A stretch of DNA of 64,000 nucleotides, taken from assembly GCA_001831095.1 (NCBI GenBank), contig MIDP01000013.1, positions 2,364 to 66,363 of the forward strand. The letters run 5' to 3'. Shown one piece after another: positions 57,951 to 58,793 of the stretch. The DNA comes from Verrucomicrobia bacterium GWF2_51_19 (GTDB lineage: Bacteria; Verrucomicrobiota; Verrucomicrobiia; Opitutales; UBA12508). A program made the position numbers and the translations under genes. Numbering within the stretch: the first letter of the stretch is position 1; every line of letters begins with the position of its first letter. A model generated the notes under the pieces. It saw nothing but the letters and a program-made list of their open reading frames with translations. It was not told where the DNA came from and ran no database searches.

Positions 57951-58143
57951 TAAACACCTATGCAAAATGTCATCAAAGCTCGTTTCGCGCTGGGGGCAGC
58001 GGCCCCCAGACCCCCCAGGATGCTCACGCATCCACTTTTTAAAAGTGGATACGAAGTATCCAAGGGTGCAGGGCCAGCCCTGCCGCTACGACAGGTCGTG
58101 CTCGCGCAAAGCCAAGCTTTGATGACATTTTTCACAGGTCTTT
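57951..58143 (-). repeat. Family T2 element, copy T2-5, with an expanded multi-hairpin core
   Basis: Outer arms ..atgcaaaatgtcatcaaagct / agctttgatgacatttttcacaggtcttt. The T2 arm sequences cgtttcgcgct and gtgctcgcgcaaagcc are present. The usual central hairpin is replaced by ~110 nt containing at least 5 short palindromes. Confidence 0.8.
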
Positions 58144-58166
58144 ATGGATCAATATTTTACGAAAGG

Positions 58167-58283
58167 AAAGACCTCTACAATATATAAGCGGCAATGCATA
58201 AAGCGCAAGGACCGTCGCGTACTAAGGTACGTGACATAGCGCTCAAACGATTAGAACGCCGCTGTCATTTTGCACGGGTCTTC
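58167..58283 (+). repeat. Degenerate family A element (A6) ending at the chaperone start codon
   Basis: ..gcaagg-accgtc-gcgtactaaggtacgtgacatagcgctcaaacgattagaacgccgctgtcattttgcacgggtcttc aligns with the A core. The last base is adjacent to the ATG at 58284. Confidence 0.6.
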
Positions 58284-58793
58284 ATGAGAATTATGAACGA
58301 AAGAACGATCAAACTAGAAACGCTCGACGAAAACATCGACGACTTTGAGGCCATATTTGAAGGCATTTTGGCTGGCACGGTCGAAGTTAAGGCGTTGTTC
58401 GGCATGAATGCTGACCAGCTCGAGGCCTTTTACAGCCTCGGTCACCATCTGTACGCTGGCAACAAGTACGATTCCGCTGAAAAAGTTTTCCGCGGGCTCT
58501 GTATTTTGGACAGCATGCAGAAAAAATACTGGCTGGCGCTCGCCGCCTGTCTGCAGATGCAGGAACGCTACGAACAGGCGATTGAGGCCTACGGCAGCGC
58601 CTTCATCATCGACGCAGAAGACCCCGAGGTCTACGAACAACTGGCCCATTGCTACATCGGTACTCGCAACATCGCTGAAGCCGTCAAGTGTTTACGCGAA
58701 GTCATCCGCATCGCCGACACAACCAAGCGCCATTCAGCCATTAAAGAACGCGCTTTGACAAAATTAGAGATAATCGAACAATCGAAAAAGTAA
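58284..58793 (+). CDS. Type III secretion class II (translocator) chaperone, SycD/LcrH/IpgC TPR family
   Basis: The segment LEAFYSLGHHLYAGNKYDSAEKVFRGLCILDSMQKKYWLALAACLQMQERYEQAIEAYGSAFIIDAEDPEVYEQLAHCY aligns with the LcrH/SycD TPR core, recalled from memory as (LEQLYSLAFNQYQSGKYEDAHKVFQALCVLDHYDSRFFLGLGACRQAMGQYDLAIHSYSYGAIMD). The start could be 58284 or 58293; the ORF-track extension reads through repeat A6. Confidence 0.85.
   Translation: MRIMNERTIKLETLDENIDDFEAIFEGILAGTVEVKALFGMNADQLEAFYSLGHHLYAGNKYDSAEKVFRGLCILDSMQKKYWLALAACLQMQERYEQAIEAYGSAFIIDAEDPEVYEQLAHCYIGTRNIAEAVKCLREVIRIADTTKRHSAIKERALTKLEIIEQSKK

What the first reader, a model, noticed from the sequence alone, without database searches (positions are those of the whole stretch)
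57951..58295. Highly structured ~330-nt spacer inside the T3SS-like module, with an expanded T2 core capable of alternative folds
Two elements lie between the 571-aa gene stop (57950) and the chaperone ATG (58284). T2-5 keeps its outer arms (..ATGCAAAATGTCATCAAAGCT / AGCTTTGATGACATTTTTCACAGGTCTTT) and its T2 arm sequences. Its centre is replaced by ~110 nt holding CTGGGGG-CAGCGG-CCCCCAG, GGATGC-TCAC-GCATCC, CCACTTTT-T-AAAAGTGG, GGATAC-GAA-GTATCC and GCAGGGC-CA-GCCCTGC. The middle three palindromes share bases. They can refold into one long helix (ATCCACTTTT/AAAAGTGGAT enclosed by GGATGC/GTATCC), so the structures are mutually exclusive. The degenerate A6 copy then ends at the base preceding the chaperone ATG, so pairing of its terminal arms would bury the initiation region. 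If the module is one transcript, this spacer is well placed to uncouple or regulate chaperone and translocator expression. RNA thermometers are known to control T3SS genes in Yersinia. A regulatory role here is speculation.
Basis: partly seen in the sequence, partly recalled or inferred. Interest (0 to 1): 0.6.

Follow-up and report, generated by a model that had tools for sequence, protein, structure and literature searches.

The report
Nested hairpin repeats fill T3SS spacer
The highly structured 333-base gap between two type III secretion genes is one copy of a composite selfish hairpin repeat that this small groundwater Verrucomicrobium carries at about twenty gene junctions, here with a 94-base hairpin-chain cassette nested in its tip, and nothing marks it as a dedicated secretion-gene switch.

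Summary

It is not a locus-specific regulator. The whole spacer, 57951-58283, is one composite repeat:
- a T2 hairpin element that starts on the stop codon;
- a conserved roughly 20-nt linker;
- a degenerate A-type hairpin that ends at the start codon.

About 20 such composites exist in this 1.26-Mb genome. There are about 100 T2 and about 120 A copies, both strongly strand- and position-specific.

The "expanded core" is a 94-nt chain of five small hairpins that replaces the 30-nt T2 tip. It recurs 12-13 times: nine times in T2 and three or four times in A-type tips. It shows compensatory changes. It resembles free-standing ~82-nt hairpin chains in another family of the same order, and its terminal hairpin motif recurs in repeat families of several phyla.

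The two folds differ by a temperature-independent ~4.7 kcal/mol, so this is not a thermometer. The chaperone start is no more buried than in a typical gene. I found no transposase and no target duplication, and no transcript data were available.

One caveat: two of the eight T2x copies in the assembly lie in T3SS operons.

The parts
56235..57950 (+). 571-aa gene of the T3SS-like module. It has no family match. Its stop codon TGA is at 57948-57950.
   Evidence: ORF list. No Pfam or NCBIfam hit.
57951..58146 (+). T2x: the 196-nt expanded subfamily of the T2 hairpin repeat. It begins (TAAACACC...) on the base after the stop codon. The outer arms are 57950-57980 and 58115-58145.
   Evidence: 133-nt short form against the 196-nt form. 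(MFE -99.6 kcal/mol, z -9.3). (all 8 T2x copies abut a same-strand stop codon).
57990..58083 (+). 94-nt hairpin-chain cassette that replaces the 30-nt T2 tip. H1 is at 57990-58009, H2 at 58018-58033, H3 (inner) at 58034-58046, H4 at 58047-58061, the AAGGGT tag at 58062-58067 and H5 at 58068-58083.
   Evidence: Alignment of 12 copies. Pair counts. Covariance-model hits. Energies.
58147..58166 (+). Linker (GGATCAATATTTTACGAAAGG) of the T2-linker-A composite. It is homologous to the consensus ATTAACAACTTACGAAAGGA.
   Evidence: 19 further co-oriented T2-linker-A composites with 22-27-nt linkers. A weak sigma-70-like match, TTCACA-16-TATTTT, lies at 58131-58158.
58167..58283 (+). A6: a degenerate A-family hairpin repeat (AAAGACC...GGTCTT-C) ending at the base before the chaperone ATG. 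Its lower stem is eroded.
   Evidence: nhmmer match to A-model positions 25-122 at 39 bits. Arms 58168-58192 and 58258-58282 are 72% complementary (I3). The fold is -39.4 kcal/mol. The A family ends 0-15 nt before start codons in 45 copies.
58284..58793 (+). SycD/LcrH-family (class II) type III secretion chaperone, 169 aa. Public gene calls start it at 58194, inside A6, which is probably wrong.
   Evidence: TIGR02552 at 129.6 bits against a cut-off of 104.8. Pfam TPR_3. Homologues are 165-175 aa.
58813..60462 (+). 549-aa gene directly after the chaperone gene, in the position of a translocator. It is unassigned.
   Evidence: ORF. No family above cut-off. Relatives have a 407-463-aa gene in the same position.

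Best explanation
The spacer is mobile-repeat DNA, not a purpose-built leader.

Shown:
- The 333 nt are one copy of a composite dispersed repeat. It consists of a T2 hairpin element that starts on the stop codon, a conserved roughly 20-nt linker, and an A-type hairpin element that ends at the next start codon.
- In this copy the T2 part belongs to a 196-nt subfamily (T2x). In T2x the 30-nt tip of the 133-nt hairpin is replaced by a 94-nt chain of five small G+C-rich hairpins.
- This cassette has moved between backbones at least once. It also sits in the tip of A-type elements.
- The cassette is related to free-standing ~82-nt hairpin chains in another family of the same order.

Inferred:
- The repeats spread by an unidentified mechanism that leaves no target duplication, possibly acting on a folded single strand.
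- They survive only in orientations and positions that respect the stop and start codons.
- They are co-transcribed with the operon as a very stable rod.
- At this junction they probably have only the generic consequences of such a rod. These could be RNase III cleavage or 3'-end protection of the upstream cistron, plus a modest extra cost of opening the chaperone start.
- Nothing points to sensing of temperature or of a ligand, and nothing is specific to type III secretion.
For: Copy number:
- The spacer gives 307 BLAST hits in the 1.26-Mb genome.
- There are about 102 full T2 copies and about 121 A copies.

Placement:
- 81 of 102 T2 copies have a same-strand stop on their 5' side. In 49 of them the stop ends within -2..+4 of the element start. 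In 16 more the ORF ends 11-24 nt inside the element. Only 2 flipped copies sit that way.
- A copies end 0-15 nt before a start codon in 45 cases, against 2 flipped.
- There are 19 other co-oriented T2-linker-A composites and none in opposite orientation.

Cassette:
- It occurs in 8 T2x copies in the assembly, 1 in an assembly gap, and 3-4 A-type tips.
- All T2x copies abut stop codons. Their upstream genes include rpsN, rplA, dnaJ, an ABC ATPase gene and a T2SS-F gene.
- Compensatory changes keep H1, H2, H3 and H4 paired: 94% of cells are paired, 5 pairs carry double changes, and 0/500 shuffles reach the observed covariation score.
- Related free-standing repeats occur in genus g12, with 17 and 11 hits.

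No switch-like behaviour:
- The fold gap is constant with temperature.
- The opening cost at the chaperone start is ordinary.
- Rfam has no match.

Other:
- The spacer is identical in two other assemblies of the same population.
- An RNase III gene is present.
Against: - Two of the eight assembled T2x copies lie inside T3SS operons: this one, and one between a SycN-like gene and yscX on contig C22. With T3SS genes at roughly 2.5% of junctions this is nominally p of about 0.02, computed post hoc.
- Among T2x copies the cassette is better conserved than the arms around it. Divergence per site is 3.9% in the cassette, 6.6-7.2% in the inner arms and 14-22% in the outer arms. This could mean selection on the cassette.
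- The strict strand specificity of T2 and A shows that something beyond passive tolerance shapes these repeats.
- No transposase was found (Y1_Tnp and DDE_Tnp_1 absent) and no target-site duplication. Mobility is therefore inferred from distribution only.
Confidence: 0.8

Rival explanations
1. The spacer is a cis-acting RNA switch, thermometer-like or with mutually exclusive folds, that controls translation or read-through into the chaperone and translocator genes.
For: - Two alternative folds of the middle hairpins are possible in every copy: 94.0% and 93.4% of cells paired.
- H2 followed by ACUUUUU is flagged as terminator-like, and the long helix would sequester that U-run.
- A6 ends at the ATG.
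- A second T2x copy lies in another T3SS operon.
Against: - The long helix is favoured by 4.0-4.9 kcal/mol at every temperature from 15 to 45 C, so there is no switch point.
- The H2 'terminator' has a 6-bp stem buried inside a rod of about 36 bp.
- The opening cost at the start is 10.3-11.7 kcal/mol. That is about the 66th percentile of control genes and well below the cost behind intact A copies.
- There is no SD to mask, and SD use genome-wide is at background.
- Six of the eight T2x copies follow housekeeping or unrelated genes.
- No fourU or ROSE-type pairing is present, and Rfam has no match.
Confidence: 0.07
2. Generic RNA function. The T2-linker-A composite is an intercistronic processing or insulator module. 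RNase III (or another nuclease) cuts in or next to the rods. The upstream cistron is left with a protective 3' hairpin and the downstream one with a 5' hairpin. This would uncouple the stabilities of neighbouring cistrons at about 20 junctions, including this one.
For: - Placement is flush with stop and start codons and strictly oriented.
- The T2x rod has about 36 bp with a 17-bp perfect run, which makes it a plausible RNase III substrate.
- RNase III is encoded.
- Precedents exist in co-transcribed ERIC, Correia/NEMIS and REP elements that alter mRNA stability (PMC3184786, PMC3733652).
Against: - There are no transcript data.
- No RNase E/G gene was found, so the ERIC-type mechanism is not available.
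- The T2 strand that lies in the mRNA is the weaker-folding strand in 87/87 copies. That is not what a designed 3' protector would predict.
- Placement could equally result from purifying selection on insertions.
Confidence: 0.22
3. The cassette is itself a small mobile element of an undescribed, widely distributed class. The class would be defined by its two terminal hairpins, CTGGGGG..CCCCCAG-ACCCC at one end and GGGT-GCAGGGC-NN-GCCCTGC at the other. It would insert as folded single-stranded DNA into the loops of other hairpin repeats.
For: - The same cassette sits in two unrelated backbones, exactly at the tip.
- It is better conserved than its host arms.
- Free-standing relatives occur in g12 genomes.
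- The exact 3' motif is found in at least 119 stretches, clustered in multi-copy families of Dehalococcoidia, Clostridia, Treponema, Patescibacteria and Verrucomicrobiota. In the Dehalococcoidia family the conserved unit also carries a CTGGGGG..CCCCCAGAC hairpin and ends exactly at GCCCTGC.
- H4 carries C-GNA-G triloops. From my own knowledge these are typical of very stable DNA mini-hairpins.
Against: - Only two or three backbone-transfer events are needed to explain the data. Recombination or template switching between hairpin tips would explain them as well.
- The cross-phylum link rests on an exact 18-base G+C-rich pattern that was itself the search criterion. Chance expectation is about 17 hits at uniform base composition and higher in G+C-rich genomes.
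- CM scores outside Verrucomicrobiota are only 25-29 bits.
- There is no associated enzyme. Y1 transposase is absent both here and in g12.
- No empty-site polymorphism was seen.
Confidence: 0.2
4. The repeat supplies an internal promoter. The T2 right arm plus the linker would drive the chaperone and translocator genes independently of the upstream genes.
For: - A sigma-70-like match, TTCACA-16-TATTTT, lies at 58131-58158 (9 of 12 positions).
- Correia elements carry functional outward promoters (PMC3184786).
Against: - The match is weak. The region holds 13 such matches against 4.4 expected, and most of them are inside genes.
- The consensus linker of other composites fits the -10 hexamer worse.
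- A much better promoter (11/12) lies at 55791-55818, ahead of the whole module.
Confidence: 0.1

Closest known systems
ERIC / IRU elements of Enterobacteria (about 127-bp imperfect palindromes)
   Same: - Size and rod-like imperfect palindrome.
- Intergenic and co-transcribed position, often just after genes.
- Many copies.
- From my own knowledge (Wilson and Sharp 2006, Mol Biol Evol), longer ERIC variants arise by insertion of about 70 bp at fixed internal sites. That parallels the step from T2 (133 nt) to T2x (196 nt).
- ERIC can alter the stability of the upstream mRNA (PMC3184786).
   Different: - I tested no sequence similarity to ERIC.
- ERIC-type elements have TA flanks and target duplications (PMC3184786), and none was found here.
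- The ERIC mechanism uses RNase E, for which no gene was found.
- As far as I know, the strict stop- and start-flush placement and the composite with a second family are not ERIC features.
Correia / NEMIS (CREE) elements of Neisseria
   Same: - Terminal inverted repeats and a size of 100-160 bp.
- Inserted next to genes and co-transcribed.
- Hairpin RNA cut by RNase III, and can carry promoters (PMC3184786; RNase III from my own knowledge of De Gregorio et al.).
   Different: - Correia elements duplicate a TA target and carry an IHF site. No duplication was found here.
- Correia elements have no nested hairpin-chain cassette and no fixed register with stop and start codons.
REP / BIME / REPIN elements mobilised by RAYT (TnpA-REP, HUH Y1) transposases
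   Same: - The cassette is a mosaic of 15-20-nt G+C-rich palindromes, like a BIME.
- It lies downstream of genes.
- It leaves no target duplication.
- REPs are abundant in the Verrucomicrobium Opitutus terrae (PMC3733652).
   Different: - The hairpins carry no GTAG or CGTC tag. The recurrent tag is GGGT.
- No RAYT/Y1 gene is present here or in the g12 genomes that hold the free-standing relatives.
- The cassette here is nested in the tip of a larger TIR-type hairpin rather than standing free.
RNA thermometers of T3SS regulators (for example the fourU element before Yersinia lcrF)
   Same: A structured RNA lies upstream of a type III secretion gene.
   Different: - No SD/AUG-masking U-rich stem is present.
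- The fold balance is independent of temperature.
- Start accessibility is ordinary.
- The element is a dispersed repeat found mostly at unrelated genes.
PATEs / miniature derivatives of IS200/IS605-family elements
   Same: - The ends are defined by hairpins rather than by inverted repeats.
- There is no target duplication.
- Insertion into single-stranded or hairpin DNA is conceivable.
   Different: - No TnpA or TnpB partner was found.
- No conserved target tetranucleotide lies next to the cassette. The left flanks differ between the T2 and A hosts.

Membership tests
[quoted passage not shown] | Terminal inverted repeats on a short (under 300 bp) non-coding unit present in many dispersed copies | tested here: met
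   The arms are 31 nt and 90% complementary. The AAAGACC...GGTCTTT termini are shared by T2 and A. There are about 102 T2, about 121 A and 9 T2x copies.
[quoted passage not shown] | Target-site duplication flanking each copy | tested here: not met
   53 T2 copies were tested with all end offsets from 0 to 3 and k from 2 to 5. No excess of matching flanks over shuffled pairs was seen.
[quoted passage not shown] | A cognate autonomous IS with the same ends, or a transposase in the genome | tested here: inconclusive
   No DDE_Tnp_1 and no Y1_Tnp match was found in the 92%-complete assembly. Other transposase families were not searched, and IS copies often fall in assembly gaps.
REP / BIME / REPIN with RAYT | Short G+C-rich palindromes tagged at one end by GTAG or CGTC | tested here: not met
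   The cassette hairpins are 15-20 nt and G+C-rich, but H5 is preceded by (A)AGGGT. H1 is followed by ACCCC, which reads GGGT on the other strand. Neither carries GTAG or CGTC. CTAC occurs only in the T2 backbone next to H5.
REP / BIME / REPIN with RAYT | A RAYT (Y1 HUH) gene in the genome | tested here: not met
   PF01797 gave no hit in the window's own genome or in the three g12 genomes with related repeats.
RNA thermometer | A temperature-labile stem that masks the SD and/or the start codon of the regulated gene | tested here: not met
   There is no SD. The opening cost of -18..+10 is 10.3 kcal/mol at 37 C, about the 66th percentile of 150 control genes. It falls smoothly from 16.7 kcal/mol at 15 C to 9.0 at 42 C, as for any structure. 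The gap between conformers is constant.
RNA thermometer | Conservation tied to the regulated gene rather than dispersal through the genome | tested here: not met
   T2x also follows rpsN, rplA, dnaJ, an ABC ATPase gene, a T2SS-F gene and a Schlafen-like gene. Chaperone loci in relatives have no such element.
Intrinsic terminator / attenuator | A G+C-rich stem directly followed by a U-tract, with a competing anti-terminator | tested here: inconclusive
   H2 (6 bp) plus ACUUUUU is flagged, and the long helix would compete with it. However, H2 is weak, the competing helix is always favoured, and the whole lies inside a rod of about 36 bp. No transcript ends are available.
Correia/ERIC-type co-transcribed hairpin acting through RNase III or RNase E | Transcribed as part of the mRNA and cleaved by the nuclease | not testable with these tools
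Feasibility only: RNase III is encoded and RNase E/G was not found.
Known RNA family (Rfam 15) | A match to a curated covariance model | tested here: not met
   No hit at E <= 1 in 55400-58900. Nothing was found on related loci either.

The most novel reading that the evidence does not exclude
The 94-nt cassette belongs to an undescribed class of hairpin-ended modules found across phyla. The class would be recognised by a terminal 'hairpin - GGGT - GCAGGGC-NN-GCCCTGC' unit, with a C-GNA-G mini-hairpin next to it. It would spread as a folded single strand, without any known transposase, into the tips of other hairpin repeats. T2x and Ax would be nested elements caught in the act. The conserved terminal unit would be the recognition site of an unknown, widely distributed enzyme.
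Probability: 0.2. Interest if true: 0.7.

Novelty: new variant of a known kind. Interest (0 to 1): 0.4.

Why it matters
For the T3SS module the finding removes a tempting false lead. The striking structure before the translocator chaperone gene is repeat DNA, and public gene calls inside it are probably artefacts. These are a 75-aa ORF and a chaperone gene extended by 30 codons.

More broadly, this reduced genome shows how densely hairpin repeats can colonise operons, including ribosomal and secretion operons. One kind lies flush on stop codons and another flush before start codons, even though the organism hardly uses Shine-Dalgarno sequences.

The new element here is modularity. A hairpin-chain cassette swaps into the tips of two different repeat families. 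It has free-standing relatives in the same order. It shares its terminal hairpin with repeat families in distant phyla. If that link is real homology, it points to an unrecognised, transposase-independent way of moving small structured DNA.

Tried and rejected
- Thermometer or switch. Energies of the two conformers at 15-45 C gave a constant gap. Rejected.
- Buried start codon. Opening energies were compared with 150 control genes and 44 genes behind intact A copies. The start is only average. Rejected as locus-specific.
- Split Shine-Dalgarno. The idea was that the linker AAAGGA is brought to the AUG by the A hairpin. The motif lies upstream of 36% of start-proximal A copies against 18% of the others. 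But SD use genome-wide is at background, 21% against 18%. Not pursued.
- Known RNA family. Rfam gave nothing.
- Orthologous junctions in relatives. The 571-aa protein has no detectable relatives. Chaperone homologues at 25-35% identity sit in different contexts, three of them 6-36 nt after the preceding gene. This is too distant to date the insertion.
- Presence/absence polymorphism. Three other assemblies of the same groundwater population were examined. Two carry the identical spacer and one contig breaks inside the cassette.
- Cassette elsewhere by DNA similarity. An exact 23-base pattern gave nothing in genome contigs. BLAST in 200 same-order genomes gave only marginal hits. The covariance model and a shorter pattern then did find relatives.
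- Arm identity of T2x against short T2. Ungapped comparison gave 0.82 against 0.76-0.77. Indels make these numbers unreliable, so I used the per-column profile instead.
- Transposases. Y1_Tnp and DDE_Tnp_1 are absent.
- Target duplication. None found.
- Literature by sequence string. Nothing relevant.
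Full report
**What is there.**
- The 571-aa ORF ends with TGA at 57948-57950, and the next gene starts at ATG 58284.
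- That next gene is a true SycD/LcrH-family type III secretion chaperone gene: TIGR02552 scores 129.6 bits against a cut-off of 104.8.
- The genome has two FHIPEP (SctV/FlhA) genes, so the T3SS-module setting is plausible.
- The region folds far better than dinucleotide shuffles. For 57945-58150 the MFE is -99.6 kcal/mol (z -9.3). For 57940-58310 it is -140.9 kcal/mol (z -7.1).
The new centre is 94 nt (57990-58083) and replaces a 30-nt tip, so the element grows from 133 to 196 nt.

**The genome.**
- The window is contig C13 of a 1.26-Mb, 43-contig, 92%-complete assembly.
- Its triose-phosphate isomerase is closest to Opitutales/Verrucomicrobia.
- Identical contigs come from groundwater metagenomes.

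**The spacer is a standard composite repeat.**
- The spacer gives 307 BLAST hits in the genome.
- A profile of the short T2 form finds about 102 full copies. A profile of the A family finds about 121.
- I used a crude gene map of the longest non-overlapping ORFs to place the copies.
- T2 is strongly position- and strand-specific. 81 of 102 copies have a same-strand gene end on their 5' side. In 49 the stop codon ends within -2..+4 of the element's first base. In 16 more the ORF runs 11-24 nt into the element. Only two flipped copies sit flush to a stop.
- The T2 terminus TAAAGACC...TGA supplies stop codons in two frames.
- A copies end 0-15 nt before a start codon in 45 cases, against 2 when flipped.
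- T2 is followed by a 22-27-nt conserved linker (consensus ATTAACAACTTACGAAAGGA) and a co-oriented A copy 19 more times, and never by an opposed one.
- The window's 333 nt are exactly such a unit: T2x at 57951-58146, linker at 58147-58166, A6 at 58167-58283.
- A6 matches only positions 25-122 of the A model at 39 bits, and its lower stem is eroded.

**The expanded core.**
- Alignment of short and long T2 copies shows that the arms are colinear. The tip (C/G)CGCCGACTGCCTCACGTACNTCTATGTA is replaced by CTGGGGGCAGCGGCCCCCAG...GCAGGGCCAGCCCTGC.
- The cassette occurs in eight T2x copies of the assembly and in a ninth inside an assembly gap bridged by a metagenome contig.
- It also occurs, about 20% diverged, in the tips of three or four A-type elements. 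There it cleanly replaces the 16-nt apex AGCGTACGTTGGTACG.
- All eight T2x copies abut a same-strand stop codon.
- Their upstream genes encode ribosomal proteins S14 and L1, DnaJ, an ABC ATPase, a T2SS-F protein, a Schlafen/AlbA-like protein and a SycN/CesT-like chaperone.
- That last copy lies between sycN and yscX in a second T3SS cluster, with TyeA and YscX on contig C22. Two of eight T2x copies are thus in T3SS operons. This is nominally unlikely (about 0.02) but post hoc. I record it as a caveat.

**Structure and the alternative folds.**
- On an alignment of 12 cassette copies, both folds are pairable in essentially all copies. The three-hairpin fold has 94.0% of cells paired. The long-helix fold has 93.4%.
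- Double changes keep H2 perfect (G-C to A-U in two copies), H4 perfect (A-U to G-C in three) and the inner H3 stem. Those same changes break or wobble the outermost pairs of the long helix.
- The few events available, essentially the T2x against the Ax lineage, therefore favour the small hairpins slightly.
- Thermodynamically the long helix wins by 4.7 kcal/mol at 37 C. The gap is 4.0-4.9 kcal/mol from 15 to 45 C, and the order is the same with DNA parameters. There is no temperature-driven switch.
- The double possibility follows almost automatically from the a-a'-x-x'-a-a' design of the sequence.

**The chaperone start.**
- Opening -18..+10 around ATG 58284 (or 58293) costs 10.3-11.7 kcal/mol at 37 C.
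- The median is 8.9 kcal/mol for 150 genes without nearby repeats, and 34% of those reach 10.3 or more. The median is 17.5 kcal/mol for 44 genes directly behind intact A copies.
- The degenerate A6 therefore occludes the start less than the family norm.
- SD-like tetramers occur upstream of 21% of starts against an 18% background, so SD masking is not a sensible mechanism in this organism.
- The promoter scan finds a strong match ahead of the whole module: 55791-55818, TTGACA-16-TACAAT. Inside the spacer there is only a weak one, at 58131-58158.

**Where the cassette comes from.**
- Rfam has nothing.
- An exact 23-base pattern and BLAST found the cassette only in this organism's own contigs.
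- A covariance model of the cassette found 11 and 17 full-length hits in two genomes of one genus (g12) in another family of the same order.
- Those hits are free-standing ~82-nt chains with the same order of modules: GATGGGGC-AGCG-CCCCATC, then CGGTGC-GAA-GCACCG, then AGGGT, then GCAGGGC-AT-GCCCTGC. One public record with this element is labelled Ruficoccus.
They cluster in multi-copy repeat families:
 - Dehalococcoidia: a roughly 165-nt unit that also holds a CTGGGGG..CCCCCAGAC hairpin and ends exactly at GCCCTGC.
 - Termite- and rumen-gut Clostridia, Treponema and Patescibacteria: a roughly 85-nt unit with lineage-specific arms around three G+C-rich hairpins, the last of them this one.
 - Other Verrucomicrobiota.
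- Because the pattern was itself the search criterion and is G+C-rich, homology beyond Verrucomicrobiota is a lead and not a result. CM scores there are only 25-29 bits.

**How it spreads.**
- This is unknown.
- No target-site duplication is detectable.
- No Y1 (RAYT/IS200) and no DDE_Tnp_1 transposase is found here. None of the three g12 genomes has a Y1 gene.
- The hairpins lack the GTAG or CGTC tags of the REP superfamilies, which are known to be abundant in Opitutus terrae (PMC3733652).
- Within T2x copies, divergence per site is 3.9% in the cassette, 6.6-7.2% in the inner arms and 14-22% in the outer arms. That fits either constraint on the cassette or faster turnover of the arms.
- The two strands are not equivalent. 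The T2 strand that lies in the mRNA folds worse than its complement in 87/87 short copies (-58.3 against -69.3 kcal/mol) and in 8/8 T2x copies. The A strand in the mRNA folds better in 101/105 copies. In a composite, the strongly folding strands of the two elements therefore point away from the linker. I have no explanation for this.

**Likely consequences at this locus (inferred).**
- If the module is one transcript, the mRNA carries a rod of about 36 bp directly after the stop codon, and a weaker hairpin up to the next AUG.
- RNase III is encoded. RNase E/G was not found.
- Co-transcribed ERIC, Correia and REP elements are known to change mRNA stability or to carry promoters (PMC3184786; PMC3733652).
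- A generic processing or stability effect is therefore possible (about 0.2), but it would apply equally to about 20 other junctions.
- Two other assemblies of the same population carry the identical spacer, so no insertion polymorphism was seen.

**Verdict.**
- The specific regulatory reading is not supported.
- The object is a nested, modular member of the hairpin-repeat load of this genome, a new variant of the MITE/REP/ERIC kind.
- Its most interesting aspect is the swappable hairpin-chain tip with relatives elsewhere.

Noticed in passing
genome contigs C32:14255-14283, C11:7178-7204, C11:77449-77475, C31:6795-6821, C17:12830-12858, C39:3220-3245, C4:784-810 (loci L109-L113): A separate 7-copy family of about 100-nt triple hairpins: CCAGGGC-TCCGC-GCCCTGG, then CTGGGGGCAGCGGCCCCCAG, then GCGTTCGAGGTTTTTAGC-TTCG-CTAAAAAACTCGAACGC. 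It shares hairpin H1 of the cassette at 96-100% identity. On the other strand it ends with GGGT-CCAGGGC..GCCCTGG. Rfam has no match.
   Followed up: partly
genome-wide (T2 and A families); window 57951-58146 and 58167-58283: Strand asymmetry of folding. The mRNA-sense strand of T2 is the weaker-folding strand in 87/87 copies, by about 11 kcal/mol. The mRNA-sense strand of A is the stronger one in 101/105 copies. In T2-linker-A composites the strong strands point away from the linker.
   Followed up: partly
genome-wide: Shine-Dalgarno-like tetramers occur upstream of only 21% of 507 ATG starts, against 18% in a control window, although the 16S rRNA has a canonical anti-SD (GGATCACCTCCT on C22). 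About 44 genes start 0-15 nt after a hairpin that costs about 17.5 kcal/mol to open.
   Followed up: partly
window 57960-58187 and 58194-58283: Public gene calls on identical contigs annotate a 75-aa ORF inside T2x. They also start the chaperone gene at 58194, inside A6, giving 199 aa. Both are probably repeat-derived artefacts, since chaperone homologues are 165-175 aa.
   Followed up: partly
genome contig C22:46758-49086 (locus L274 3759-6087): A second T3SS cluster of Ysc type: a 348-aa ORF, TyeA, a SycN/CesT-like chaperone, a T2x copy, then YscX. Nearby are a CesT-family chaperone, a Fic-domain protein, an ECF sigma factor and a 733-aa ankyrin-repeat protein.
   Followed up: partly
loci L140, L148, L163, L179, L185, L189, L196, L205, L213 (Dehalococcoidia MAGs): A multi-copy repeat of about 165 nt (...GGGGAGTCCAGAGGGGCGAAGCCCC...GGGGGTCTGGGGGTGTCCCCCAGACTGGGCTTAGCCCAGACCCACACC...GTTGAGTGTGGGTGCAGGGCNNGCCCTGC). 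Its conserved part stops exactly at GCCCTGC. Rfam has no match.
   Followed up: partly
loci L158, L166, L186, L187, L191, L183, L209, L210, L202 (Oscillospiraceae, Treponema, Patescibacteria, Saccharibacteria and a Gammaproteobacteria MAG): A compact element of about 85 nt shared across phyla. Arms TAAGGGTGTAATACC / GGTGTTACCTTA enclose three G+C-rich hairpins, the last being GGGT-GCAGGGCTTGCCCTGC. The architecture is the same as T2x: arms plus a hairpin chain whose last hairpin touches the 3' arm.
   Followed up: no
locus L102 (metagenome contig Ga0209417_1004267), between the ends of contigs C20 and C17: A metagenome contig bridges an assembly gap of the genome and carries a ninth T2x copy. 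The repeats evidently break the assembly, so copy numbers are lower bounds.
   Followed up: partly
window 55791-55818 and 58755-58782: There is a near-consensus sigma-70-like promoter (TTGACA-16-TACAAT) just upstream of the 130-aa first gene of the module. A second match (TTGACA-16-AACAAT) lies in the 3' end of the chaperone gene, just upstream of the 549-aa gene.
   Followed up: no
window 58047-58061 and homologous positions in other copies and genomes: Hairpin H4 nearly always has a G-N-A triloop closed by C-G (CGAAG or CGCAG), or a GNNA or GNRA loop (GTCA, GACA, GCGA). From my own knowledge, C-GNA-G loops are characteristic of unusually stable DNA mini-hairpins. This hints at a function on single-stranded DNA.
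   Followed up: no
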